This document shows positions 1-45,049 of a DNA stretch of 64,000 bases, in pieces. The position numbers were made by a program, and so were the translations under genes. How positions within the stretch are numbered: position 1 is the stretch's first letter; the number at the start of each line of letters is the position of its first letter. Source of the stretch: a bacterium (GTDB lineage: Bacteria > Bacillota > DTU030 > JBMNJR01); assembly GCA_050951765.1 (NCBI GenBank), contig JBMNJR010000008.1:54795-118794 (forward strand), written 5' to 3'. The notes below the pieces were generated by a model, which worked only from the letters and a program-made list of their open reading frames with translations, searched no databases and was not told where the DNA came from.

Positions 1-182
1 GCAGGCTTTAGACCCCGGTTTTTATGAACGACGAACGCATCGCCGTATTCTTTAACTCCTTTCTTTATGCGTTTTACCTGTCGTTCGCTTAAGCCTAAGA
101 TCTCTGCCGCTTCACTGATTGTCATCTTACCTTCGAGCAGACAACGGGCAATATGAAGTTTGTTTCGTTCATCCTGTGTCAT
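1..182 (-). CDS. ISNCY-type transposase, N-terminal HTH part (partial; runs off the window start)
   Basis: Minus-strand ATG at 182; translation MTQDERNKLHIARCLLEGKMTISEAAEILGLSERQVKRIKKGVKEYGDAFVVHKNRG resembles the HTH N-terminus of the transposase fragment at 59217..59606 (LLDLSVRQV..HKNRGRKP). Confidence 0.5.
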   Translation of the reverse strand, partial: MTQDERNKLHIARCLLEGKMTISEAAEILGLSERQVKRIKKGVKEYGDAFVVHKNRGLKP

Positions 183-283
183 TGATAATATCATCCTTTC
201 ATTGTAGCAGAGGGTGACATTTTCTCAGAACAATTTCAGGGTGACATTATCACAGAACAAACACACACCAGTGGCTCAACCTC

Positions 284-312
284 TTGACATTTCCCCATAT
301 TTCCGCTATACT
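284..312 (+). promoter_or_regulatory. Sigma-70-like promoter for tRNA-Leu
   Basis: TTGACA, 17 nt spacer, TATACT, about 15 nt upstream of the tRNA 5' end. Confidence 0.4.
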
Positions 313-326
313 AAAATCTGCAACGT

Positions 327-413
327 GCCGAAGTGGTGGAACTGGCAGACGCGCTGGATTCAAAATCCAGTGGGGGCAACTCCGTGTGGGTTCGACTCCC
401 ACCTTCGGCACCA
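327..413 (+). tRNA. tRNA-Leu (anticodon CAA)
   Basis: 7 bp acceptor stem GCCGAAG/CTTCGGC, anticodon loop TTCAAAA, long variable arm, T-loop TTCGACT, encoded CCA end. Confidence 0.85.
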
Positions 414-755
414 AACCCAATATACTCAAGAGTTCCGAGGTTTTCACATGATGAAGACTTCGGAACTTTTATTTTTGCGCAATGCGCTGGATACTAAGGT
501 TCTCACCGCACTGGATTATTAGAACTAAACAAAATCAAATCCCCTCAAATGATAAGCCTCGTTCAATCAACAGAATTACGCTTAACTTTTTTAACTAAAG
601 CAGGAGTATGATAATAAATGCCGAAAAAGAAAATAATAGGACAAATGTATAATGATAGTAATATAATATTTTTTGCAGAACTTTTTTGTTGTATTCTTAA
701 CTACAATGTTCATCAATTGTACCTTTATTAATAAATTAAAAAGGGAGGTAAATTT

Positions 756-7498: not shown

Positions 7499-7535
7499 CC
7501 TTAAATTATTTATTTCTTTTTGCAGACTCTGAACC

Positions 7536-7590
7536 TGGCTAGCCTAATTTTACCGCCGGCTCTGCCACCGTGGCGGCCCTTCCAAGAAGT
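7536..7590. repeat. Dispersed intergenic repeat, family R2 copy
   Basis: GCTAGCCTAATTTTACCGCCGGCTCTGCCACCGTGGCGGCCC; near-identical to 35551..35600 and reverse-complementary to 25264..25308. Confidence 0.6.
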
Positions 7591-7702
7591 TTAAGTGTTA
7601 GCCGCAACCCCTTTTGTACCACAAAGTAGACATTCCTTTATCCTCGGAGAAATGTTGCAGCTAATTTTCGTCCTTATGCCGGTACCGTATATCGGCATGG
7701 TG

Positions 7703-8878
7703 CTACTCCTTAACCTCAATAAACCGTCCGCTCTGGGTCCGCACAAGATAAGGTTTGCCATTACGGGTATAGACCCTGGGCAAGCGCCGGCTAAGGCAAC
7801 AAAGTACTTCACCAAGAGTTACGCCTAAAAGGGGATTTACCTCCTCCGGTGATACTGAGGCTTCACCTTGCTTTCCAAAGATGACAACCTCCTCACCAAC
7901 CTTGACTTCCAAATCCCCGGCATCAACCATACACATATCGGCACAGGTGGCAACAATTGTTTTCCTTTGCCCCTTAAGCAACACCGGACATTTGCCGGCT
8001 AACCGTTTCGACAGCCCGTCACTGGAACCTAAAGGCAAGGTGATTATTCTTGTATCTTGGGCAGGGCGATAGAATGCGTCATAGCCGACACCATCCCCTG
8101 CTGCTACCGGAATAGCATGCACAGCTATGGTCTTAAGTTGTAACGCCGGTTTGAGAGTTAGATTTTTCTCTGCCTCCGGGTAAGGGTAGTAGCCGTAAAA
8201 AATGCGGCCTGTTCGTACTGCATTAAAATGAGTGCTGGGTAAATCATATGTTGCGGCACTATTGGCAGCATGTCGCAGCGGAATATCAATCCCTGCCGCC
8301 GCCAATTCCTCAAGGACTTGATTAAATACCCTCAATTGCCTTTCCGTGTCAGTCTTATCCTTCTGCGCAGCCTTGGCAAAATGAGTGAAGATCCCTTCCA
8401 ACTCAATACCAGCTAAACCTTTCACAAACCGGGCAAACTCAACTGCATCCTCCGGCTGCACACCAATGCGATTTAAACCAGTATTTACCTTCATATGCAC
8501 CTTAACCACTTTCCCTTTTTCTTGCGCCACAGCCGCCAATTCTTTCGCTATTTGCCGGGTATACAGGGCAAGAGTTAAATCATGATCAACGGCTGCTGCC
8601 AATTGGCAAGGAGCAGTATAACCCAAAACCAAAATAGGAGCAGTGATCCCGTGATCACGCAACTCCAAAGCCTCATCCACCATCGCCACAGCAAGACGGT
8701 CTGCGCCGTTGGCCAATGCTACCCGCCCCACTTCCACAGCGCCATGGCCGTAGCCGTCACCTTTTACCACTACAATAAACTGAACCTTCTCCCCTATATG
8801 ACGCCTAATCTCCCGTACATTATTACCAATGGCATCAGTATCGATTTCAACCCATGCCGGTCGCCAAAATCTATCCAT
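7703..8878 (-). CDS. alr: Alanine racemase
   Basis: MDRFWRPAWVEIDTDAIGNN...VVVKGDGYGHG (PLP-lysine region); start set at internal ATG 8878 with RBS GGAAAGGGG; ORF track extends to 8992. Confidence 0.85.
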   Translation of the reverse strand: MDRFWRPAWVEIDTDAIGNNVREIRRHIGEKVQFIVVVKGDGYGHGAVEVGRVALANGADRLAVAMVDEALELRDHGITAPILVLGYTAPCQLAAAVDHDLTLALYTRQIAKELAAVAQEKGKVVKVHMKVNTGLNRIGVQPEDAVEFARFVKGLAGIELEGIFTHFAKAAQKDKTDTERQLRVFNQVLEELAAAGIDIPLRHAANSAATYDLPSTHFNAVRTGRIFYGYYPYPEAEKNLTLKPALQLKTIAVHAIPVAAGDGVGYDAFYRPAQDTRIITLPLGSSDGLSKRLAGKCPVLLKGQRKTIVATCADMCMVDAGDLEVKVGEEVVIFGKQGEASVSPEEVNPLLGVTLGEVLCCLSRRLPRVYTRNGKPYLVRTQSGRFIEVKE

Positions 8879-9156
8879 TGTAGTCACCCCTTTCCGCATA
8901 TTGCCGGCATAAACCAACAGTTCCCTTTCAGTTCGCCTCATCACCTTGATAAATTGACACCTTACCTGGCAGAAAAGAACTTCGCCGTACAAAAAAATTC
9001 AGCATATAATTAAAATAATATCCTCATTAAATATTCAATGATTTTTAATATTTCCCTCCCCCCAGCAGCAAAAGTTCTGCAAAATTTTAAAAGAATTGTC
9101 CAGATGCAGAAAAAAGGGTATCAATAAACCACCCTTTTATATTACTATGCATGGAT

Positions 9157-9558
9157 CTAAAACCTACGCCACATAAATGATACTGCCCCTTGATCTAACA
9201 TTTTTTGCAGATATCTCTCCAACCACCCCTTAAACCAGGTACGACTAAGGGGGAAAAGGAACAAAAAACCTGTTATGTCTGTGAGCAAACCGGGAGCCAA
9301 TAGTAATAAGCCGCCAACCAGCACCAAAAGGCCATGCAATAGATCAGATGTGGGAAGTTCACCTTGGGCAAGTTGTGCTTGAATTCTATAAAGCAAAAAT
9401 AGTCCTTGGGATTTAGCTAAGAATGCTCCCACAAAGCCGGTGCCAATAACCAAGGCAATGGTCGGCCACACTCCAAGCCGTTGGCCTACCGCCAACAAAA
9501 TCCAGAGTTCGATAAACGGTATTAACGTAAAAGCAAGCAAAAGCCGCAGCAACATCAA
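9157..9558 (-). CDS. fxsA: FxsA family membrane protein
   Basis: 133 aa, two TM helices, motif LLAPGLLTDITGFLFLFPLSR. Confidence 0.7.
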   Translation of the reverse strand: MMLLRLLLAFTLIPFIELWILLAVGQRLGVWPTIALVIGTGFVGAFLAKSQGLFLLYRIQAQLAQGELPTSDLLHGLLVLVGGLLLLAPGLLTDITGFLFLFPLSRTWFKGWLERYLQKMLDQGAVSFMWRRF

Positions 9559-14227: not shown

Positions 14228-14451
14228 GATGCTCCCCTACTCTCCCTTCTCATCCACAGTATGCAATTTCACAGTAACCGTTCAGATCAATATTTAAAAT
14301 TTCAGCACGCAGGATATCCTCACCTTTATACACTAGTAGTTTATCTTTCCTTCGACTACCTTTTACCGGAATCCTTTTCGCAGTACAATAATTTTTTCAT
14401 TGTCACCTGTTAGATGTTTCCACGATAACATCTACTCTAAAAATACGACCC

Positions 14452-14547
14452 GGCTCGACAAGGAACCGGAGAGAGCGAAGCCGGAAGTGATGGACAATTA
14501 ATTTTCATTCCTCTGCTGGTGTCGAGAATCGGCATGGGCGTCTACTC
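14452..14547. repeat. Dispersed repeat, family R1 partial copy (right half)
   Basis: About 96 bp near-identical to 35432..35532 and 54603..54710, ending ...CGGCATGGGCGTCTACTC; on the minus strand begins 6 nt after the dnaE stop. Confidence 0.7.
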
Positions 14548-14552
14548 CCATC

Positions 14553-17500
14553 CTACCCGGACAAATCCTTGACTGCTGCTTCTGCAGGCCCTAAAATCGT
14601 TTTCAGCTCATTCATCAGTTCACTTTGCAGTTCCACTGTTAAATTAGGCACCCGATGCAAAGATTTCTCCTTTTGAAAGTAAAGAAAAACAGGATGCGGG
14701 CCGGGAAACTTTGTCAGCAAACGGAGCACTTGATTCATGCTTTGTTTTGCCTGCCTGGAACTTAGACGTACATATAGTGCTTTCTTCGCCGCATCCAAGT
14801 GTGATGTATTCAACTCGGTTATCTGCTCTGCTATTACTTTCACCTCAGTTTCCTGCCAATTTACCTCCCCTTTGACCAAAAGCAGTGCATCTTCCGTCAA
14901 TAAGGAACGACTTTGCTCATATAGCCGGGGAAAGATAACAACTTCATATGTACCTGTAAGATCCTCTATGGTAGCAAATAGCATCTGTTGCCCATTTTTG
15001 GTCAATATTTGTTTACCGGCGCTATATACACCGGCCAAAGTGACTTTTGCACCATCGGCAAAATCCTGTAATTCCTTGCTACTTACGGTTTGTTCCCGTA
15101 AAAAAGTAGCATAACGGGCTAAAGGATGGCCGGAAATATAAAGACCCACAGTCTCCTTTTCCAGAGCAAGCAACTGTTCCGGAGGAAACTCCGGTATTTG
15201 CGGCAGTTCCGCACCAATTGGATCCATTTCTTCAGTAAAAAATTCAAATAGAGAATACTGGCCGGTTAATTTCTCCCGCTGCAATTGTTGCGCAACATCT
15301 AATACCTGATCCAACCCTGCCAACAAACGGGCTCGCAACTCCCCTACGGAGCCAAAGGCTCCACACTTAATCAAACTCTCAATAACCCGCTTATTGACTA
15401 CCCGCAGATCAACTCGATTACAAAAATCTTGAAATGAGGTGAAACTCCCACCCTCTTCCCGGGTGGCAATAATGTTTTCAATTGCCCCTTTTCCCACATT
15501 TTTCACCGCAGCCAAGCCAAACCTGATTTTCCTGCCTACAACAGTAAAATCGGTTAAACTCTCATTTACATCAGGTGGTAAAATCTCAATACCCAACCGG
15601 CGACATTCATCAATATAAAGAGCTACCTTATCGGTATTCTCCATGACACTGGTTAATAGAGCTGCCATGTACTCTACCGGATAGTTTGCCTTCAAATAAG
15701 CCGTCTGATAAGCAATCACGGCATACGCCGCAGAATGACTTTTATTAAACCCATACCCGGCAAAATGGGCCATTAAATCAAAGATTTCCCCTGCTATCTT
15801 TGTAGGAATCTTCCGCTTAACAGCCCCCTGTAAAAATTGTTCCCGCAATGCGGCAATGACTTCTGGCTTCTTTTTCCCCATGGCTCGCCGCAAAATATCG
15901 GCTTCACCAAGGCTGAAACCTGCCAATTGGCTGGCAATCTGCATTACCTGCTCTTGATATAGAATAATTCCATATGTTTCCTTCAGGATCGGCTCCAAAG
16001 TAGGATGTAGGTATTCCACCTGCTTGCGTTGGTGTTTGCGGGCAATATAATCCTCTACCATACCACTGCCTAACGGCCCCGGTCGGTAGAGAGCAACTAA
16101 AGCCACAATATCATTAAGACTGCTGGGCTGTAAATCTTTAATCAGTGTCCTCATACCCGCACTTTCAAGCTGGAAGACACCGGAAGTGTTCCCCTGCTGT
16201 AACATTGCATATGTATTCTGATCTTCTGCAGGAATATTCCGGGGATCGATAACTATTCCTTGGGTAACTCGAATAATTTTCAAGGTATTCTGGATCACTG
16301 TTAAAGTTCTTAAGCCTAAGAAATCCATTTTTAACAGCCCAAGTTCTTCAATAGTATCCCAGGGAAATTGAGTTGTCACCACTCCGTCTGAAGTTTTCTG
16401 TAAGGGAACATAAGCAGTTAAAGGTTCCCGGGAAATAACTATACCTGCAGCATGAACCGAAGCGTGCCGGGGGAGGCCTTCTAAGATTCGAGCAGTTTCT
16501 AATACCTCTCCCAAAGCAGGGTCTTGGGCTACCAATTGGCGCAAGTTTGTACTTACCTGCAAAGCCTTCTCCAGAGTCATGCCCAATTCCATTGGGATCA
16601 ACTTCGCCAATTTGTCTACATCACCATAGGGGATACCATAAACCCGCCCTACATCTCGCACTGCACCCCTTGCAGCCATGGTACCAAAGGTCACTATTTG
16701 GGCTACCCGGTCCTTACCATACCGTTTGATCACGTAATCAATTATTTCCCCTCGCCGGTCATCACAAAAATCTATATCTATATCAGGCATGGTTACCCGC
16801 TCCGGGTTTAGAAAACGCTCAAAGATAAGACCATGTGCCAACGGATCTATATCAGTAATACCGAGGCAATATGCCACCAAACTACCAGCTGCCGAACCGC
16901 GGCCAGGCCCGACCAAAATTCCCTGTTCCCGGGCAAAACGGATTAAATCCCACACAATCAGGAAATAACCAGCATAACCCATTTTATTGATCACATTAAG
17001 CTCATAAGCCAGCCGTTCCTTTATCTCCTCCGTCAGTTGAGCATAACGTCCTATTAAACCTTGCCGGCACAGTTGTTCTAAATATACTTCTGGAGTATTC
17101 CCACTAGGTAATGAAAAAGCAGGTAAATGCAAATGCCCAAAATCCAGTACTACGTTACAGCGCTCTGCAATAGCTATAGTATTAGCAACAGCCTCCGGAA
17201 CAGCATGAAACAGTTGCATCATTTCCGCCGTTGATTTTAAGTAAAACTCTTGAGTGGGAAAACGCAGTCTGCCTTCATCAGCCAAATTTTTTCCCGTTTG
17301 AATGCATAGCAGCACATCATGAGCAGTAGCATCATTTTTCTTGATGTAATGCAAGTCATTAGTAGCCACCATGGGTATAGCCATATCCCTGGCTAACCGG
17401 ATTATTTTTTCGTTGCTTTCTTTCTCCACTGCCATACCATGATCTTGCAACTCCAGAAAAAAGTTATTCTGCCCAAATATCTCCCTGTATGTTTTGGCAG

Positions 17501-17972
17501 CATCCCGTGCCCCGGCTTCATCCCCTTGCAATAATTTGGTCGGGATCTCACCGGCTATGCAGGCAGTAAGGGCAATCAAACCCTTACTATACCGGGAAAG
17601 GAGTTCCTTGTCTACTCGCGGCTTATAATAAAATCCTTGCAGATAAGCTTGTGAAACTATTTCCAACAAGTTTTGGTATCCTTGCTGGGTTTCCGCCAGT
17701 AAAACCAAGTGATACAAATTATCATCAATCCGCGGTTTCCGGTCAGCCATTGTCCGGGGAGCCACATAGACCTCACAACCTAACAGAGGTTTAATCCCAT
17801 GCTTTAGACAACATTTATAAAATTCCACTACACCGTACATAACACCATGATCAGTAATAGCCAGTGCCGGCATCTCAAGCTGGGCGGCAGCAGTTACTAA
17901 ATCTGATATTCGCGCTGCTCCATCTAATAGACTGTACTCTGTATGACAATGAAGATGAACAAATTTAGACAC
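14553..17972 (-). CDS. dnaE: DNA polymerase III alpha subunit
   Basis: PHP domain start FVHLHCHTEYSLLDG; probable GTG start at 17972 preceded by AAGGAGGG; ORF track extends to 18041. Confidence 0.9.
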   Translation of the reverse strand: MSKFVHLHCHTEYSLLDGAARISDLVTAAAQLEMPALAITDHGVMYGVVEFYKCCLKHGIKPLLGCEVYVAPRTMADRKPRIDDNLYHLVLLAETQQGYQNLLEIVSQAYLQGFYYKPRVDKELLSRYSKGLIALTACIAGEIPTKLLQGDEAGARDAAKTYREIFGQNNFFLELQDHGMAVEKESNEKIIRLARDMAIPMVATNDLHYIKKNDATAHDVLLCIQTGKNLADEGRLRFPTQEFYLKSTAEMMQLFHAVPEAVANTIAIAERCNVVLDFGHLHLPAFSLPSGNTPEVYLEQLCRQGLIGRYAQLTEEIKERLAYELNVINKMGYAGYFLIVWDLIRFAREQGILVGPGRGSAAGSLVAYCLGITDIDPLAHGLIFERFLNPERVTMPDIDIDFCDDRRGEIIDYVIKRYGKDRVAQIVTFGTMAARGAVRDVGRVYGIPYGDVDKLAKLIPMELGMTLEKALQVSTNLRQLVAQDPALGEVLETARILEGLPRHASVHAAGIVISREPLTAYVPLQKTSDGVVTTQFPWDTIEELGLLKMDFLGLRTLTVIQNTLKIIRVTQGIVIDPRNIPAEDQNTYAMLQQGNTSGVFQLESAGMRTLIKDLQPSSLNDIVALVALYRPGPLGSGMVEDYIARKHQRKQVEYLHPTLEPILKETYGIILYQEQVMQIASQLAGFSLGEADILRRAMGKKKPEVIAALREQFLQGAVKRKIPTKIAGEIFDLMAHFAGYGFNKSHSAAYAVIAYQTAYLKANYPVEYMAALLTSVMENTDKVALYIDECRRLGIEILPPDVNESLTDFTVVGRKIRFGLAAVKNVGKGAIENIIATREEGGSFTSFQDFCNRVDLRVVNKRVIESLIKCGAFGSVGELRARLLAGLDQVLDVAQQLQREKLTGQYSLFEFFTEEMDPIGAELPQIPEFPPEQLLALEKETVGLYISGHPLARYATFLREQTVSSKELQDFADGAKVTLAGVYSAGKQILTKNGQQMLFATIEDLTGTYEVVIFPRLYEQSRSLLTEDALLLVKGEVNWQETEVKVIAEQITELNTSHLDAAKKALYVRLSSRQAKQSMNQVLRLLTKFPGPHPVFLYFQKEKSLHRVPNLTVELQSELMNELKTILGPAEAAVKDLSG

Positions 17973-18218
17973 CGGCCTTCCCTCCTTGAACGAGACTTCA
18001 TTTGAGGAGTAATCGACTCCCTTATTGTTTGTCGAGCACATACTGGACCAGCAGGCCTTCCCGCCGTATATTGAGGCGGGAGGCTTAGGCTAGTTAGTTC
18101 AGTCAGTACCGAACTTTTTCTCTAATTCCACACCTTAGGGATAACTCCTCCTACATACAATTGGGATAATTATTCCATAAGGTCTATATTTCTCATAAAT
18201 GGAAAAGGGGAATAAAAG

Positions 18219-25099: not shown

Positions 25100-25310
25100 A
25101 GGATAGCCGTTTTGCATAGCTGGCGACTGCTTTTTGAGGTTAGAAGTTGGAAGTTAGAAAAGAACAATATAATATTAGGTTCTATGTATAAAAAAAGAGA
25201 AATAATGAACTCTTTCGCATTACTGTCTAACTTCGAATCTCTAACCTCTAACTTTTTGGAGAGGGTGGTCACGGTCGCCGGAGCCAGCGACAAAATTAGG
25301 CTAGCCCCGG
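25100..25310. repeat. Family R2 repeat locus: inverted duplicate modules
   Basis: 22 bp module CTAACTTC(C/G)AA...CTAACCTC present inverted at 25136..25157 and direct at 25227..25248; followed by the AAAATTAGGCTAGCC module at 25264..25308. Confidence 0.6.
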
Positions 25311-25341
25311 ATAAAGTGTTTCAGAATAGAAACAAATTCCC

Positions 25342-35162: not shown

Positions 35163-35284
35163 AATATTTGCTCTGATTTTATCCTATCATAAAATTCTTT
35201 CCAGCTTTGTTTTTTCCTCTTTCTGATAGCATTTGCACCTAAACGGCTAATTCTGGGCTCGACAAAAAAACCCGGCTCCTTATA

Positions 35285-35532
35285 GAGTAGACGCCCATGC
35301 CGGTATACATCACCTGCGGAAGGCCTGTCCAAAGCCGAAGGCGACGGGCACTAAAGCTTAGGTTCCTTGTCCGGCATGTACATGAGCCCATGGCACCTCT
35401 ATACTTCCGGCAACTGAAAGTATAGAGGCATGGCTCGACTCGACAAGGTACCGGAGAGAGCGAAGCCGGAAGTGGTGAACAATTAATTTTCATTCCTCTG
35501 CTGGTGCCGAGAATCGGCATGGGCGTCTACTC
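35285..35532. mobile_element. MITE-like element, repeat family R1, complete copy
   Basis: 248 bp bounded by perfect 18 bp terminal inverted repeats GAGTAGACGCCCATGCCG (35285..35302) and CGGCATGGGCGTCTACTC (35515..35532); internal hairpin CTCTATAC...GTATAGAG; no ORF. Confidence 0.7.
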
Positions 35533-35550
35533 TGAAAACATTTTGTCCGG

Positions 35551-35600
35551 GGCTTGCCTAATTTTGCCGCTGGCTCCGGCGACCGTGGCCGCCCTCCAAC
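35551..35600. repeat. Dispersed intergenic repeat, family R2 copy
   Basis: GCCTAATTTTGCCGCTGGCTCCGGCGACCGTGGCCGCCC, homologous to 7536..7590. Confidence 0.6.
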
Positions 35601-36523: not shown

Positions 36524-37975
36524 AATTATCCCTCCCCAATTCTAAGAACTGCGCAATTTGTTGCGCGATCCTTGCTACAACCTGTTCTGTTTCCGCTTCA
36601 ACATATACGCGCAGCACATCTTCAGTCCCGGAAGGACGGACAAGACACTATGCACCATCAGAAAGTACCATTTTTACACCATCCAACCGCTGTATTTGTA
36701 TAAGCTTACGACCTGCCAATTGGTCCGGAGGATTGGTAGTTAATACTGCTAATACCCTCGCTTTTGCTGCAGCTGTACAATAGAAGTCCACTCTTTTGCT
36801 ATACAACTGTCCATACTTAGCTCTGAGCATTGCCATTAGTTCCGGTAAAGTAATATCATATGCAGACAAAATACCGATCAACAATAATCCGGCAACAATG
36901 CCATCTTTTTCAGGTATTTCCCGATTAACCCCTAACCCTCCGCTCTCTTCTGCTCCTAATACTGCCCCTTCGTTAAGCATTGCCTGTGCTAAATATTTAA
37001 ATCCCACCGGTGTTTCAATCATCTTAATCCCTGCTTTTTCTGCCACCCGATCGATCATATGGGTAGTTGCCACTGTCCGAGCAAAAGCAGGATGTTCTGC
37101 ACTGTGATCTGCCATATAATCGGCATAAACGGTAAAAACCTGATTGGGGCTAATATAATTACCATCTGGACCAATAAACCCAAAACGATCCCCATCCCCG
37201 TCCAGCGCAATACCTAAATCCGCTCGGCTCTCCCGCACAGCCGCAGCTAAGTTACCGAGGTTTTCTTCCTTGGGCTCAGGGGATAATTGCCCGCAAAAAG
37301 GTTGTTCGCTGTGAATAGTGAGCACATTATGACCAAGATTGCACAAAATATGCTCCATGTAACCTGCACCAGCGCCATACATAGGATCTACCATAACCTT
37401 TAATGCACAATTCCCATTGATACCCTCCATCAGTTTGCATAGATATCGCCGGTAAATCTCAGCAGAGGAAATTTTTCTGATCAGCTTCGCACCTATTTTG
37501 CAGTGAATCCAGTATTGGATGGAACTTCCGGCGGTATCAAAGCCTCAATGGCACCGGTTATCGCATTTGGCGCGGGACCGGCAAAATCGGGAATATATTT
37601 AATCCCATTATAGTAATAAGGATTATGGCTGGCCGTAATCATAATACCGCCGGCCAGGTGCAAGTCCTTAATTGTACAAGCTATGGCAGGAGTTGGTACC
37701 GGTTGTTCGTTTAGATAAACAGGGATACCGTTGGCTGCTAAAACTTGCGCCGCAACACTGGCAAAAACATCTGACAGCAAGCGCGTATCATAGCCAATCA
37801 CAACACCACGGGTATAATCCTGTCCATTCTTTATTAGATAGGCGGCAATCCCTTGTACGACCCGAGCCAAATTTTCAGGAGTAAACTCTTGACCAATAAT
37901 TGCCCGCCACCCATCGGTGCCAAATCTGATTAAGCCCACCCTTCGCTCCCTCCACGCTTTTTTCAAGTATCCCAA
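36516..37975 (-). pseudogene. Phosphoglucomutase/phosphomannomutase, disrupted
   Basis: Active-site TASHNP in 37493..37975; frameshift near 37440..37520 (A-run GCAAAATAGG); domains II-III in 36648..37430; in-frame TAG at 36648..36650 where Trp is expected (DGA*CLVRPSGTE); frame then continues 43 codons to TAA. Confidence 0.6.
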
Positions 37976-38209: not shown

Positions 38210-38240
38210 TAAATAAAAAATTGAACTATAGCGCATTATA

Positions 38241-38330
38241 TACTAGGGGAGCTGGAAACGCCAGCTGAGATAAAGACGTAATTAGTCTTTGACCCTTGAC
38301 CTGATCTGGATAATGCCAGCGTAGGGAAGT
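38241..38330 (+). promoter_or_regulatory. TPP (THI-box) riboswitch aptamer
   Basis: CTAGGGGAGC...GCTGAGA...ACCCTTGACCTGATCTGGATAATGCCAGCGTAGGGAAG matches conserved THI element segments. Confidence 0.85.
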
Positions 38331-38350
38331 AACTTTTGTTTTTGTTGTAA

Positions 38351-38386
38351 AGCATAAATCCTTATCCTGGGATTTATGCTTTTTTA
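38351..38386 (+). terminator. Riboswitch expression-platform terminator
   Basis: 11 bp stem AGCATAAATCC/GGATTTATGCT followed by TTTTT, just upstream of the thiW start. Confidence 0.65.
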
Positions 38387-38405
38387 CTTTACAGAAGGGA
38401 GGGAT

Positions 38406-38903
38406 ATGATGAAAACCCAAAAGCTTACATTAGCCGCGCTCTTCATTGCCTTCGCAACCTTGACCGCCCACGTGTTCTATATACCTGCCGGTGTAGCAAA
38501 ATGTTTTCCGATTCAACACACAGTGAACGTATTATCAGGGGTAATATTAGGACCTTGGTATGCAGTTTCCATTGCATTTTTAACTTCACTGCTGCGAAAT
38601 ATTCTGGGCACAGGTTCTCTTTTGGCTTTTCCCGGCAGTATGGTTGGAGCTTTTTTAGCAGGTATGTTATATCAAAAAACAGGAAACCAGTTAATGGCTT
38701 CCCTAGGCGAAATCGTTGGCACAGGATTTTTAGGCGCAATTGCTGCATATCCGGTAGTAAAGTTGCTTATGGGTCAAGATATTGCTATGTTCTTCTATGT
38801 GGTTCCTTTTTTTACCAGTACTACCGGCGGCACCATAATTGCCAATCTATTGTTAAAAGCAATTGCTTCCCTGAAGTTAATTAAATTGAATTCAGCTAGT
38901 TAA
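38406..38903 (+). CDS. thiW: Thiamine-precursor transporter ThiW-like
   Basis: Small polytopic membrane protein first behind the TPP riboswitch; start ATG 38406 with RBS GAAGGGAGGG; ORF track start 38376 lies inside the terminator. Confidence 0.7.
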   Translation: MMKTQKLTLAALFIAFATLTAHVFYIPAGVAKCFPIQHTVNVLSGVILGPWYAVSIAFLTSLLRNILGTGSLLAFPGSMVGAFLAGMLYQKTGNQLMASLGEIVGTGFLGAIAAYPVVKLLMGQDIAMFFYVVPFFTSTTGGTIIANLLLKAIASLKLIKLNSAS

Positions 38904-38927
38904 ACTGGATAATGGGGTGTATATTTA

Positions 38928-39749
38928 ATGAAGAATGTCTTGACTATTGCCGGCTCTGACAGCAGTGGCGGAGCAGGCATTCAGGCGGATCTAAAAACCT
39001 TTTCCGCCCATGGGGTTTTTGGCATGAGTGTGATTACAGCTATTACAGCTCAAAACACCCAAGGGGTTTTCGGTGTCGAAGACATCTCCGATGCAATGAT
39101 CGAAAAACAGATCGACGCAATATTTACCGACATTAAAGTTGATGCTGTGAAAATAGGCATGGTTTCCCAATCGAAAACCATTAAATCCATTGCAAAAAAA
39201 TTAAAGCAATACGCACCGAAAAATATCGTTTTAGATCCTGTTATGATCTCCAAAAGCGGCTATGATTTATTACTCCCGGAAGCCAAGGAAACGCTGATCA
39301 ACGAGCTTTTGCCGCTTGCTACCATAGCTACGCCAAATATTCCGGAAGCTGAAGTCATAACCGACATCAAGATCGCCACCACCCAAGACATGGAAAAAGC
39401 GGCAATAAAAATTCATGCACTGGGGACAGAAAATGTCCTGATCAAGGGTGGCCATATGCAAGCAGAGGCAACCGATATATTATACAATGGGAAAGAATTC
39501 TTTTATTTCACTGCAGAAAGAATCGCCACAAAAAATACCCATGGGACCGGTTGCACCTTATCAGCCGCCATTGCCAGTAACCTGGCTAAAGGTTATCCGG
39601 TAAGGGAAGCAGTGGCGCAAGCAAAGGATTATATTACCACAGCCATAAGGCATGCATTAGACTTGGGCACAGGTGTAGGGCCGACAAATCATTTTTATAC
39701 CTTATACAAAAAGGCTGGTTTACTTGATAATGGAGCTGAAACCAATTGA
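38928..39749 (+). CDS. thiD: Hydroxymethylpyrimidine/phosphomethylpyrimidine kinase
   Basis: VLTIAGSDSSGGAGIQADLKT N-terminus. Confidence 0.9.
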   Translation: MKNVLTIAGSDSSGGAGIQADLKTFSAHGVFGMSVITAITAQNTQGVFGVEDISDAMIEKQIDAIFTDIKVDAVKIGMVSQSKTIKSIAKKLKQYAPKNIVLDPVMISKSGYDLLLPEAKETLINELLPLATIATPNIPEAEVITDIKIATTQDMEKAAIKIHALGTENVLIKGGHMQAEATDILYNGKEFFYFTAERIATKNTHGTGCTLSAAIASNLAKGYPVREAVAQAKDYITTAIRHALDLGTGVGPTNHFYTLYKKAGLLDNGAETN

Positions 39750-40570
39750 AAATACTGCAAAGGATTTCAAAACTGTTACCGGAAATCAAAGCAAGAAAAC
39801 CGCTAATCCATCATATAACAAACTTTGTCACTGTAAATGATTGTGCAAATATTACTCTTGCCATCGGCGCTTCCCCGATCATGGCTGTTGATGGGGCTGA
39901 GGTGGCGGAAATTGTGTCAATGGCCTCTGCACTAGTATTGAATAGCGGCACATTAACTTCTGACTCCATTAAATCTATGCTTATAGCGGGGAAAAAAGCA
40001 AACGAGCTGAAAATACCTGTAATTCTTGACCCTGTGGGAGTGGGTGCTACTACATTAAGAAATGAAGCAATAAGAAAGCTATTGACAAATGTTAAAATTG
40101 CGGTACTTAAAGGCAATATGTCAGAAATAAAGTTTATATCCGGCTTGGATGTTAGCATTAGAGGGGTAGATTCTACCGCAAGTGAAGAAGGAAGCGCAGA
40201 AGCAGCAAAAAAATTGGCTGCGCAGTTAGGATGCGTGGTGGCTATAACAGGTAAGCGGGATATTATATCGGATGGAGATATAACCTTTTTTATCGATAAT
40301 GGCCATGAAATGTTGGCACATATTACCGGCACCGGCTGTATGATCTCATCATTAATCGCCTCATACAGTGGGGTTACAGATGATTATCTAACTGCTACTT
40401 TGGGAGGGATAATCTCAATGGGAATTGCCGGGGAAATTGCTTCCCGATCATTAACAAACGACCAGGGAATAGGAAGCTTTAAGGTGAATCTATTTGATTG
40501 TATCTATAAACTTACATCAGATACGATCATAAAAGAAGGTGCTATAAGTGTTTACGAAAGAAAGGATTAA
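39746..40570 (+). CDS. thiM: Hydroxyethylthiazole kinase
   Basis: Conserved ThiM N-terminal region; 4 nt overlap with thiD. Confidence 0.85.
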
Positions 40571-41177
40571 TTATACTCTCTATTTAGTAACCGATAGGGA
40601 TTTATTAGGCAAGAGGGATCTGGCTACAAGTATTGCGGAAGCTATTGCCGGTGGTGTAACTATGATTCAGTTGCGAGAAAAGAAATGTACAACAAGAGAA
40701 TTCTATAATCTTGCTGTCAAAACAAAAGCAGTCGCTGCCAGTTACAAGATACCCTTTATTGTTAACGATAGGTTAGACATAGCTTTAGCAGTGGATGCTG
40801 ACGGGCTTCATGTTGGCACTGATGACCTGCCGGTAAGTGTGGCCAGAAATTTGCTTGGTCCCGATAAAATTTTAGGAGTATCAGCGGCAAATCTTGCTGA
40901 GGCGCAGGCAGCACAAGCCCAAGGCGCCGACTATCTTGGTGTAGGAGCCATCTTCCCAACCGCAACCAAAGAGGTTACCCACAGTGTAAGCTTAACGGAT
41001 TTGCGGCTGATTAAATCCTCTGTGCAAATTCCCATAGTGGCTATCGGCGGCATCAACGAAACAAATGCAAAAGAAGTAATGCAGACAGGTATTGACGGAA
41101 TTGCTGTGGTTTCCGCTATTCTAAGCAAACCTGATATCTGCGCTGCAGCCCAAAAACTCTATAGTATAATAGTTTAG
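40548..41177 (+). CDS. thiE: Thiamine-phosphate synthase
   Basis: YLVTDR motif and TIM-barrel ThiE features. Confidence 0.9.
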
Positions 41178-43451: not shown

Positions 43452-43524
43452 CTAAATTAATATAAATGGTCGTGTCAAATAGTTGTAGGACATTTACTTT
43501 TATCGTCCCTTTTGGTTTTTGTCA

Positions 43525-44934
43525 CTAGAGCCTGATATTACCGTCTTGAAGGCCACGTAAACAGGGAAACATCGGAACCACTTTGCCCCTCTTTAATATG
43601 GGTATATTGGCGAACTTTTCATTAGATACTTTTTCGAATGACCGGTTCATTTTCCGCATCATGCTCTGGTTAAATCTATATCTTAAACTTGTACCCTTAG
43701 ATTTGGTATCACGAAAATGTTTTAGTTCTATCTTCCCACCACTTGCCATAAACGCTCGTAGTTCCGCCATCTTTCGCAGCCCTTCTTGGCTCCAGCCCAT
43801 GGGGCGGCTGCTTATTCTGCTCGAGAGAATATGGCTCACATGACCTCTGTACAGCTGCTGCCGCATTCTTCATGGTTATATATTACTATTGCTTCCCAGT
43901 TGTTGGTTATATATCTATGGAATTTGCGTATTTTCTCCTTCTCAGAGACACTGCCAGCCTTTTGGTATAGGCCTTTGATGATTGCTCTAAAGGCCTCTTT
44001 ATCAGAGTTTGAAAGTGCTGTGTAAATAGCAGTTCTTGCTTCCGGGTGTTGGCTCGTAGCAGTCATGATTGCTTTATTCAGGTGGTAACGATCTAATACT
44101 AACTTAGTGTTGGGAAGCCATTTTAGGCCTTCTTTTATCCAGGCCGCGCCATCACCATGTAGATAGATGCGTTCTATCTTCTCGGCTTCTGCCGCCTCTA
44201 ACCATAGGTCTTCATTGTCTTTACCACTACTGCTTATGTAATGGGTATTGATGCAGCTGCCGCGCTTTCTTTGCCTTTCTATCCCTTCGTGTATGCTTAT
44301 CAGCGGTACTATGCTGTTTTTACCGTCTTGCATGGATGCATGGTCTTCATCTGCATTTATATATAATACCGATGCCTGGCGTTTTTCGGTGGGCAGATCT
44401 ATCTTTAATTTTTTTACCTTGCGTAGCTTATTCATCACTGTTTGCCTACTTACTTCGCCCTTTGTAACGTATTTACTGCTTTTACCGTACGAGTTTTCAC
44501 TAGCACATTCTATGAGCCTTTGTGTAACAGCGGTGGATACTCGTTCGTATTTCTCTATCCCTACTGCTTTATCCAATAAATAGACATGCTCATCGTTCCT
44601 TTGATCATGAAAATAGGGTCCTGCTGAATACTATCTGTCCAAACTGTGTATAAAGCTCTCGCTTATCTTTCCTACGCTCAATTACAATTCCTTCTTGTCT
44701 TCTACTTGCTTTATCATCAACTATGGATTTGTCCAGCTCCTCAAGGTACGCTTCTACAATCTCTACTATGAAATTATCGGCCTTTTCTTTAAGATTTACT
44801 TCCATTTCTGCTATCGTTTTAGGTCCATCACCTTCAATGAAAAATTCTGCTACCCCCTTTATGAAATTTTCACAGATTTGTAGTAGAATAGTATCAAACA
44901 AGAGATCTCCTCCTTTGGTAATTGTTGTGGGCAA
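43525..44934 (-). pseudogene. ISLre2-type (UPF0236) transposase, fragmented into three frames
   Basis: Three collinear ORFs (44605..44934, 43836..44576, 43525..43866) that appear to be consecutive parts of one transposase. Confidence 0.55.
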
Positions 44935-45049
44935 ACTCTATTTTACCAAAAAGGACGATCTCTTGTTTCTTTTTTCCTACAATTATTTTACACTAGGAAT
45001 ATAAATAAACCTATACGCATAAATTAAGAACCCTTAAGACAGCAAAAGC

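What the first reader, a model, noticed from the sequence alone, without database searches (positions are those of the whole stretch)
14452..14547. R1 repeat copy abutting the dnaE stop codon
On the minus strand the repeat begins 6 nt after the dnaE stop. The same arrangement occurs after cobO (54603..54710, 3 nt after the stop). The element therefore either inserts preferentially into gene 3' ends and terminators or acts as one. The three copies differ at a few positions.
Basis: seen in the sequence. Interest (0 to 1): 0.5.

Follow-up and report, generated by a model that had tools for sequence, protein, structure and literature searches.

The report
Dispersed intergenic repeat abutting stop codons
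This is a real, lineage-specific non-coding repeat of about 100-140 bases that was inserted just after the dnaE and cobO stop codons; it looks like a small REP/MITE-type selfish element, not a transcription terminator, so it is a fairly ordinary kind of thing.

Summary
R1 has three direct copies on the + strand: 14445-14547, 35402-35532 and 54573-54710. They are 89-95% identical over the 97-nt core. The shared end lies 5 nt from the dnaE stop and 2 nt from the cobO stop.

I found three more members. One is a degenerate inverted copy at 35284-35420. One is a fragment at 7649-7709, whose end supplies the TAG stop of alr. One is a terminal fragment in flanking sequence of the same species.

Relatives with about 72% DnaE identity have 129-137 nt between dnaE and the next gene, against 325 nt here. 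So R1 is an insertion. One relative carries R1 at a different locus and in the opposite orientation to its genes.

All copies share one sharp end, ...CGGCATGGGCGTCTACT. This end is an imperfect hairpin followed by CTAC (GTAG on the other strand). The other end is ragged and mosaic. No reading frame is kept, nothing matches Rfam, and folding is no better than shuffled sequence. Only copy 1 has a terminator-like site, and its T-run lies outside the repeat.

Best reading: a non-autonomous REP/MITE-like repeat that lands at gene 3' ends. The terminator idea is not supported. It is a new family of a known kind, of low to moderate interest.

The parts
14445..14547 (+). R1 copy 1 (core only, 5'-truncated relative to copies 2 and 3). 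Its shared 'sharp' end at 14547 lies 5 nt from the dnaE stop.
   Evidence: Also present at 99.6-99.8% identity in same-species contigs L139 and L140.
14514..14545 (+). Terminal module of copy 1. It is an imperfect hairpin, TGCT-G-GTGTCGA-GAA-TCGGCAT-G-GGCG (14514-14540). It is followed by T and then CTAC (14542-14545), which reads GTAG on the minus strand.
   Evidence: 80% of cells are paired across 7 copies, against 24-43% when the partner is slid.
14548..14552 (.). 5-nt spacer between the R1 end and the dnaE stop codon.
14553..18041 (-). dnaE (DNA polymerase III alpha), stop TAG at 14553-14555. The C-terminus is complete: residue 1155 of 1162 aligns to profile position 1148 of 1151.
14439..14470 (-). 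Terminator-like site specific to copy 1. The hairpin at 14470..14449 lies mostly inside R1 and runs 4 nt past the copy's left edge at 14445. The tail TCGTATTTTT (14448..14439) spans the left edge of the copy, and its run of five T lies wholly in flank that copies 2 and 3 do not share.
   Evidence: There is no equivalent at copies 2 and 3.
14386..14444 (.). Extra sequence that sits with copy 1 in the insertion relative to other genera. It contains a second GAGTAGA motif (minus strand, 14431-14437). It also contains a 7-bp hairpin, AGATGTT...AACATCT (14412-14433).
   Evidence: The reading of the motif and hairpin is my own.
35402..35532 (+). R1 copy 2, extended form. It lies in the 578-nt gap between a MoxR-like ATPase gene and a GPI-like gene.
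35284..35420 (-). Degenerate inverted R1 copy, about 60% identical inside but with a perfect terminal 19 nt. Together with copy 2 it forms a 250-bp unit. That unit is bounded by perfect inverted termini AGAGTAGACGCCCATGCCG at 35284-35302 and 35515-35533.
   Evidence: (I5)
54573..54710 (+). R1 copy 3, extended form. Its sharp end lies 2 nt from the cobO stop.
   Evidence: Present in same-species contigs L129, L130 and L131.
54713..55330 (-). cobO/cobA (cob(I)yrinic acid a,c-diamide adenosyltransferase), stop TAA at 54713-54715, full length.
54166..54424 (.). Other repeat modules in the same 606-nt gap. R4 is at 54166-54209 and R3 at 54222-54292. Block A is at 54337-54365. Block B is at 54364-54424 and is inverted relative to the L126 copy. 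Together they form a mosaic.
7649..7709 (+). Degenerate R1 3' fragment. Its end GCTACTCC supplies the TAG stop (7703-7705) of alanine racemase, 7703..8992(-).

Best explanation
R1 is a lineage-specific, non-coding, non-autonomous dispersed repeat. It is a small selfish element of the REP/MITE kind, either still mobile or formerly mobile.

Its functional part is the conserved terminal module of about 37 nt. This is an imperfect hairpin followed by T-CTAC, which reads as GTAG plus hairpin on the other strand. I infer that a transposase supplied in trans recognises this module. Most plausibly this is a single-strand-specific Y1/HUH enzyme of the RAYT or IS200 type. Less plausibly it is a DDE enzyme that uses the 19-nt terminus as an inverted repeat.

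Copies land, or survive, with the GTAG head against the 3' end of a gene, immediately after the stop codon and sometimes supplying it. The rest of the element (65-100 nt) is passenger sequence that gets truncated, rearranged and mixed with other repeat modules.

Shown: repetition, the sharp common end, the status as an insertion, presence at a different locus in another species, absence of coding capacity, and position next to stop codons. Inferred: the mobilising enzyme and the mechanism of targeting.

The element is not in itself a transcription terminator. At dnaE, an R1-borne hairpin happens to be followed by a flank-encoded T-run and may terminate there.
For: 1. **Repetition well beyond chance.** The copies also share a single sharp boundary at ...GGCATGGGCGTCTACT, while the opposite boundary differs in every copy.
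2. **Empty orthologous sites.** The dnaE-to-DUF2007 gap is 129-137 nt in five relatives against 325 nt here. The extra ~165 nt sits directly after the stop. The gap downstream of cobO is 105 nt in L136 against 699 nt here.
3. **A different locus in another species.** L126 (DnaE 72% identical) carries one copy at 9287-9533, between pyk and the AA_kinase (proB-like) gene. It is in the opposite orientation relative to the genes. That site is short and empty in the window and in L122 and L128.
4. **The terminus outlives the interior.** The inverted copy at 35284-35420 is about 60% identical inside but 19/19 at the terminus. L126 keeps 17/19.
5. **A conserved terminal hairpin.** 80% of cells are paired, against 24-43% in slid controls. 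The loop varies from 3 to 9 nt, and one pair changes from A-U to G-C.
6. **Not coding.** No frame is open in all copies and L126 has a 1-nt indel. About 5 of 11 differences between copies 1 and 3 are synonymous, and 1 of 6 between copies 1 and 2 (counted by me).
7. **Mosaic neighbourhood.** Other repeat modules surround the copies, and one block is inverted between c3 and L126.
8. **Position.** Three of 7 termini lie within 7 nt of a stop and face it, P about 2e-4. The alr stop is supplied by the element's TAG. [quoted passage not shown]
9. **Assembly breaks.** Short-read contigs of the same species end inside or at the edge of R1. L140 ends at window position 14517 and L130 at 54569. This is expected for a multi-copy repeat.
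Against: - No target-site duplication and no conserved target motif could be defined at the sharp end.
- No candidate transposase was found in about 84 kb of this species. There is no Y1_Tnp/RAYT and no TnpB. The IS21 and UPF0236/ISL3-like elements present have unrelated ends.
- No presence/absence polymorphism was seen among strains that are 99.3-100% identical. Recent mobility is therefore unproven.
- Only 7 members are known. Covariation in the hairpin is not above shuffled controls.
- GTAG-plus-hairpin motifs in general are not enriched in the window: 22 against 26.7 in shuffles.
- The conserved unit (103-138 nt) is much longer than a REP.
- The true copy number in the genome is unknown.
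Confidence: 0.68

Rival explanations
1. R1 is a cis-acting 3'-UTR RNA element on the minus strand, co-transcribed with dnaE, cobO and alr. It would terminate transcription, protect the mRNA 3' end from exonucleases, or slow terminating ribosomes. REP hairpins do the last of these when they lie within 15 nt of a stop.
For: - It starts 3-6 nt after two stop codons and supplies a third.
- Copy 1 has a terminator-like hairpin plus a T-run.
- In the long-range helix ACUUCCGGC/GCCGGAAGU, the variant in c3 and L126 makes a G-U pair on the minus strand but a C-A mismatch on the plus strand.
- Published precedent: REPs within 15 nt of a stop stall ribosomes, as cited in PMC12306157.
Against: - The T-run is present only at copy 1 and lies outside the repeat. 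Copies 2 and 3 have no terminator-like site.
- Minus-strand folds are no more stable than shuffles, with z-scores of +1.78, -0.68 and +0.71.
- The terminal hairpin pairs better on the plus strand. Its G-U wobbles become C-A mismatches on the minus strand.
- On the dnaE mRNA the hairpin starts about 19 nt after the stop and has a mismatch.
- The L126 copy and the inverted copy at 35284-35420 are in the opposite orientation to the flanking genes. Copy 2 is 208 nt from any stop.
- It is not conserved at orthologous loci.
Confidence: 0.15
2. R1 is a multi-copy small RNA or antisense RNA gene transcribed from the plus strand. Its 3' end would lie at or beyond the sharp boundary and run convergently into the 3' ends of dnaE, cobO and alr.
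For: - The sharp, conserved 3' boundary and the 3'-proximal hairpin with G-U wobbles fit the plus strand.
- Copy 2 on the plus strand folds somewhat better than shuffles (z = -1.76).
- In L126 the plus-sense copy sits in the 5' leader of the AA_kinase (proB-like) gene.
Against: - No promoter-like site lies in or before the shared part on the plus strand, and no terminator follows the hairpin.
- The z-scores for copies 1 and 3 on the plus strand are -0.15 and +1.82.
- The 5' part differs between copies.
- There is no Rfam match at E up to 10.
- Covariation is not above control.
Confidence: 0.07
3. R1 is a relic of a longer element or gene. For example, it could be the end of an IS200/IS605-type or other insertion sequence, or of a group II intron that targets terminators. 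Only solo ends would be left.
For: - One sharp end and a ragged opposite end resemble solo ends or 5'-truncated retro-copies.
- A subterminal hairpin lies 7-13 nt from the boundary, as in IS200/IS605 ends (from my own knowledge of IS608).
- Four of 5 window copies share one orientation on the lagging-strand sequence, where GC skew is negative throughout.
Against: - No full-length parent is present in 84 kb, in relatives, or in plasmid, phage or viral collections.
- There is no conserved 4-5-nt target next to the end.
- The orientation count is not significant, and the L126 copy is reversed in a syntenic context.
- There is no group II intron domain V/VI match in Rfam at E up to 10.
Confidence: 0.1

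Closest known systems
GTAG-tagged REP elements (repetitive extragenic palindromes; REPINs/BIMEs mobilised by RAYT/TnpA-REP Y1 transposases), as surveyed in PMC3733652
   Same: - There is a terminal GTAG next to an imperfect stem-loop that contains G-T pairs.
- It is extragenic and lies within a few nt of the 3' end of the upstream ORF.
- The GTAG sometimes supplies the TAG stop.
- There is a head-to-head pair with the GTAG termini outside (35284-35533).
- It is embedded in mosaic clusters with other repeats.
   Different: - The conserved unit is 103-138 nt with a long non-palindromic body, against 20-40 bp for a REP.
- The two termini of the pair are 176 nt apart, against the usual 1-100 nt.
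- The host is a spore-forming Bacillota (Desulfotomaculia/Peptococcaceae-like). The word Firmicutes does not occur in the main text of that survey.
- No RAYT gene was seen.
- Copy number is unknown.
- GTAG hairpins in general are not enriched here.
Bacterial MITEs (e.g. Correia/NEMIS, RUP, ERIC/IRU, bcr1) - from my own knowledge and the review PMC10969869 listed
   Same: - The size is 100-250 bp.
- It is non-coding, intergenic and dispersed.
- Orthologous sites are empty.
- The 250-bp unit at 35284-35533 has perfect 19-bp inverted ends.
   Different: - Single copies have only weak inverted similarity at the two ends (about 10 of 17).
- No target-site duplication was found.
- No parent IS with matching ends was found.
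- It does not fold into a long hairpin.
Rho-independent (intrinsic) terminators
   Same: It lies just after stop codons. Copy 1 has an 8-bp hairpin plus a T-run on the mRNA strand.
   Different: The T-run is not part of the repeat and is absent at the other copies. The element is 100+ nt long and is also found in the reverse orientation.
IS200/IS605-derived palindrome-associated elements (PATEs)
   Same: There is a subterminal hairpin a short fixed distance from a sharp end, and no target duplication. Most window copies share one orientation on one replichore.
   Different: No second matching hairpin is present at the other end. No conserved target tetra- or pentanucleotide was found, and no TnpA or TnpB.

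Membership tests
REP / REPIN (GTAG-tagged) | Conserved terminal GTAG (or a close variant) next to a palindromic stem-loop | tested here: met
   GTAG (CTAC on the + strand) lies 1 nt from the foot of an 11-bp imperfect stem, or 7 nt from the perfect 6-bp stem. This holds in c1, c2, c3 and L126; in the inverted copy the GTAG terminus is perfect but no hairpin could be drawn. The motif is degenerate in two fragments.
REP / REPIN (GTAG-tagged) | The unit is essentially the palindrome itself, 20-40 bp | tested here: not met
   The conserved unit is 103-138 nt, and 65-100 nt of it is not palindromic.
REP / REPIN (GTAG-tagged) | Extragenic, mostly close to the 3' end of the upstream ORF, and able to supply the TAG stop | tested here: met
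   The termini lie 5 nt from dnaE, 2 nt from cobO and -7 nt at alr, where the element supplies the stop. P is about 2e-4.
REP / REPIN (GTAG-tagged) | High copy number (tens to hundreds per genome) | not testable with these tools
   Only about 84 kb of the species could be read. It holds 3 full copies and 3 degenerate copies.
REP / REPIN (GTAG-tagged) | A cognate RAYT (Y1 transposase) gene flanked by the repeats | tested here: inconclusive
   No Y1_Tnp-type hit was found in the ORFs scanned or in the precomputed Pfam hits of the flanking contigs; about a dozen mostly short window ORFs were left unscanned.
MITE | Terminal inverted repeats on each copy | tested here: inconclusive
   Perfect 19-bp inverted termini bound the 250-bp unit 35284-35533, but this is two copies placed head to head. 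Within single copies the left end matches the inverted right end at only about 10 of 17 positions (my own reading).
MITE | Target-site duplication flanking the element | tested here: not met
   No direct repeat flanks c1, c2, c3 or the L126 copy.
MITE | An autonomous IS with the same ends | tested here: inconclusive
   The termini of the IS21 element at 56701-59671 were read and are unrelated. No R1-like match falls at the UPF0236 remnant. There were no hits in the plasmid, phage or viral collections. The whole genome was not available.
Intrinsic terminator | A G+C-rich hairpin immediately followed by a U-tract, as part of the repeated unit | tested here: not met
   Only copy 1 qualifies, and its T-run comes from copy-specific flank. 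Copies 2 and 3 have none. One hit per region equals the shuffle expectation.
Any Rfam RNA family (including group II intron, HEARO/omega-RNA-like) | A covariance-model match | tested here: not met
   No match at gathering score. At E up to 10 there were only chance-level hits: SNORD111, Pseudomon-Rho and IRE.
IS200/IS605-derived PATE | Subterminal hairpins at both ends plus a conserved 4-5-nt target 5' of the left end | tested here: not met
   There is one hairpin only. The flanks at the sharp end differ: GATGG, AATC(A), TTTCA, TTCAT, TTATA.

The most novel reading that the evidence does not exclude
R1 could be the first REPIN-like replicator described in a spore-forming Bacillota lineage. In this reading it is a GTAG-tagged hairpin carrying about 100 nt of cargo. 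A domesticated Y1/HUH (RAYT-like) transposase would move it as single-stranded DNA and place it precisely at translation stop codons. There its transcript could tune termination or mRNA decay of essential genes such as dnaE.
Probability: 0.12. Interest if true: 0.55.

Novelty: new member of a known kind. Interest (0 to 1): 0.3.

Why it matters
If the reading is right, R1 is mainly an annotation and assembly issue. It breaks short-read contigs, creates spurious ORFs (for example 35239..35520 and 54469..54918), and lengthens intergenic regions.

It also gives a small natural example of a repeat that lands within a few bases of stop codons and can donate a stop codon (alr). This extends the behaviour described for proteobacterial GTAG REPs to an uncultured Desulfotomaculia-like Firmicute.

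It would matter more if a cognate Y1 transposase were found, or if the copy behind dnaE were shown to set the 3' end of the dnaE transcript.

Tried and rejected
- **Genome-contig scan.** I used the 17-mer CGGCATGGGCGTCTACT. Blastn of the 121 loci found no real copy (an earlier run, read only part of them).
- **Metagenome-contig scan.** A 25-specified-base pattern gave only two chance matches, in 74% G+C contigs.
- **Viral, plasmid and phage searches.** Nothing found.
- **Spurious-ORF trick.** I queried the protein database with concatenated translations of R1 frames. There were no hits at E up to 10.
- **Protein-coding or type I toxin idea.** Rejected. No frame is open in all four copies, there is no usable start with a Shine-Dalgarno sequence, and L126 has a frameshift.
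- **Leader or riboswitch idea, prompted by L126.** Rejected. The window copies have no downstream plus-strand gene, and there is no Rfam hit.
- **R1 as the end of the window's IS21 or UPF0236 elements.** Rejected. The IS21 ends are unrelated, and no R1-like match falls at the UPF0236 remnant.
- **A general population of GTAG hairpins in this genome.** Not seen: 22 observed against 26.7 in shuffles.
- **Strain presence/absence polymorphism.** None was seen for copies 1 and 3. The look-up for the copy 2 locus failed.
- **A possible R1 relic at the pyk-proB site of L124, L125 and L127** (GGGAAATCGGCAGGGGCC). It is not significant by nhmmer and is left open.

Full report
**Observation**

The stretch 14452-14547 is one member of a repeat family. 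The repeat finder reports three direct copies of 97 nt at 14451-14547, 35436-35532 (95% identical) and 54614-54710 (89%). More sensitive searches extend these to 14445-14547, 35402-35532 and 54573-54710. Copies 2 and 3 share about 35 further bases on the left. The terminal 18-mer CGGCATGGGCGTCTACTC occurs four times in the window at up to 3 mismatches, and never in 100 shuffles.

ORF 14553..18041(-) is DNA polymerase III alpha (1684 bits) and 54713..55330(-) is cobO/cobA. Five bases separate the repeat from the dnaE stop and two bases separate it from the cobO stop. Both proteins reach the end of their family profiles, so the genes are intact and the repeat begins just after the natural stop.

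**More members**

nhmmer found four further members:
- A degenerate inverted copy at 35284-35420, about 60% identical inside but with a perfect terminal 19 nt.
- A 3' fragment at 7649-7709.
- A terminal fragment in flanking sequence of the same species, at L133 844-888.
- One full copy in a related organism, at L126 9287-9533.

The inverted copy and copy 2 together form a 250-bp unit bounded by perfect 19-nt inverted termini, AGAGTAGACGCCCATGCCG. The fragment at 7649-7709 ends in GCTACTCC, and the CTA in it is the TAG stop of alanine racemase 7703..8992(-).

**Host and relatives**

The best DnaE match is 72% identical. The next tier (about 59%) is Desulfofundulus, Pelotomaculum and Thermincola. 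A YtrH sporulation gene is present. The host is therefore an uncultured spore-forming Bacillota related to Desulfotomaculia/Peptococcaceae. The same species, at 99.3-100% identity, occurs in several metagenome assemblies. Copies 1 and 3 are present there unchanged, and two short contigs end inside or at the edge of R1. This is expected for a multi-copy repeat.

**It is an insertion**

In five relatives the gap from dnaE to the next gene (DUF2007) is 129-137 nt, against 325 nt here. The alignment places about 165 extra bases directly after the window's dnaE stop. The rest aligns to a conserved leader. Downstream of cobO, a relative has a 105-nt gap against 699 nt here.

The L126 copy sits between pyk and the AA_kinase (proB-like) gene. 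That site is 55-108 nt long and free of R1 in the window and the other relatives. The L126 copy is in the sense orientation with respect to the genes, which is the opposite of the window copies. It ends 29 nt before a start codon.

No R1 was found in about 150 kb of other relatives, nor in plasmid, phage or viral collections. The metagenome pattern scan also found none.

**Anatomy**

All members share one sharp end (...CGGCATGGGCGTCTACT, then divergence). The other end differs in every copy. The last 37 nt form an imperfect hairpin on the plus strand (TGCT-G-GTGYCGA-GAA-TCGGCAT-G-GGCG). It is followed by T-CTAC, which reads as GTAG-A-hairpin on the minus strand.

Across seven members, 80% of cells in this hairpin pair, against 24-43% when the partner is slid. 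The loop varies from 3 to 9 nt, and one pair changes from A-U to G-C. Covariation does not exceed shuffled controls, so the hairpin is conserved but unproven as a selected structure.

Wobble pairs favour the plus strand for this hairpin but the minus strand for a second, long-range helix (ACUUCCGGC/GCCGGAAGU). No strand can therefore be assigned. Whole-element folds are no better than shuffles on either strand, with z-scores from -1.76 to +1.82. Rfam gives nothing.

No reading frame is open in all copies, and substitutions are not biased towards synonymous changes.

The surrounding gaps are mosaics of other short repeat modules (R2, R3, R4, blocks A and B). One block is inverted between copy 3 and L126.

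**Terminator test**

Only copy 1 yields a terminator-like site, on the mRNA strand at 14470..14449, followed by TCGTATTTTT. The hairpin belongs to R1, but the T-run lies where copy 1 departs from the other copies. Copies 2 and 3 have no such site, and one hit per region is the shuffle expectation. R1 is therefore not a terminator as such. The dnaE copy may act as a composite one.

**Position**

Three of the seven termini lie within 7 nt of a stop codon and face it. With random placement in the window's 9,887 intergenic bases the chance per copy is 0.019, and P(3 or more of 7) is about 2e-4. The other four do not follow the rule.

GC skew is negative across the window, so the plus strand carries the lagging-strand sequence. 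Four of five window members share the plus orientation. That count is not significant, and L126 is reversed.

**Interpretation**

The best-supported reading is a non-autonomous dispersed repeat whose functional part is the GTAG-tagged terminal hairpin. The remainder is passenger sequence that decays, truncates and recombines.

The closest described things are GTAG-tagged REPs. According to PMC3733652 they carry a terminal GTAG next to a 6-13-bp stem, often with G-T pairs. [quoted passage not shown] REPs within 15 nt of a stop are reported to stall ribosomes, as cited in PMC12306157.

R1 fails the REP size criterion, being 103-138 nt with a long non-palindromic body. No RAYT or other Y1 transposase was found in the 84 kb available. 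GTAG hairpins in general are not enriched. No target duplication or target motif could be defined. I therefore say that R1 behaves like a REP/MITE-type element, and I do not claim membership of either family.

**Verdict**

R1 is a new, lineage-restricted family of a familiar kind of element. Interest is low to moderate.

Noticed in passing
window 56701-59671 (-): IS21-family insertion sequence: istA at 57595..59157 and istB at 57077..57601. istB is truncated to 174 aa here but is 241 aa in a same-species metagenome contig (L129). That contig also has extra sequence next to it, so this is a strain-level structural difference.
   Followed up: partly
window 43468-44997 (-): A UPF0236/ISL3-like transposase is broken into three ORF pieces: 43525..43866, 43836..44576 and 44605..44934. 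A 96%-identical intact copy (361 aa) lies elsewhere in the same species, at L133 6259..7344.
   Followed up: partly
window 36648-37975 (-): A phosphoglucomutase/phosphomannomutase appears split into two ORFs. Domain I is in 37493..37975 and domains II-IV are in 36648..37430. This could be a frameshift, a pseudogene or a genuine split gene.
   Followed up: no
window 7508-7601(+), 35526-35599(+), 25241-25337(-): A second repeat family (R2), about 70-95 nt, with a GCCACCGTGGC-type palindrome. It directly abuts R1 copy 2 and precedes the R1 fragment at 7649.
   Followed up: partly
window 54222-54292 / 25101-25163 (inverted), 25226-25251 (direct); 54166-54209 ~ L133 754-798: Further short repeat modules are present. 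R3 is rich in TCTAAC/GTTAGA motifs. R4 reads CAGCTTGTTGGTTAAGC...CGCCGGACTCCAC. Both co-occur with R1 in mosaic intergenic regions.
   Followed up: partly
window 14228-14385 (-) and L122, L124-L128 downstream of dnaE: A leader of about 130 nt before the DUF2007-(pfk)-pyk operon is conserved across genera (AAAAT..AAGAGGAT..GGCGAAGGAA). There is no Rfam match. It may be a promoter or regulatory region.
   Followed up: no
window 38235-38344 (+): A TPP riboswitch (78 bits) lies ahead of thiW-thiD-thiM-thiE (38376-41177).
   Followed up: yes
window 175-541 (around tRNA-Leu 327-413): Sequence next to tRNA-Leu(CAA) differs between strains of the species: 87-92% identity or replaced in L133 and L134. 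In L133 it adjoins IS21 end fragments and an rve-domain gene. It is probably an integration hot spot.
   Followed up: no
L124 16500-16530, L125, L127 (pyk-proB gap): GGGAAATCGGCAGGGGCC lies at the position where L126 has the R1 terminus. It may be a relic of an old R1 copy or a chance resemblance. It is not significant by nhmmer.
   Followed up: partly
protein search: The DnaE of this species was not returned by the protein search (best hit 72%). Its CobO, Pyk and other proteins are on record with exact matches. The dnaE product is apparently missing from the collection.
   Followed up: no
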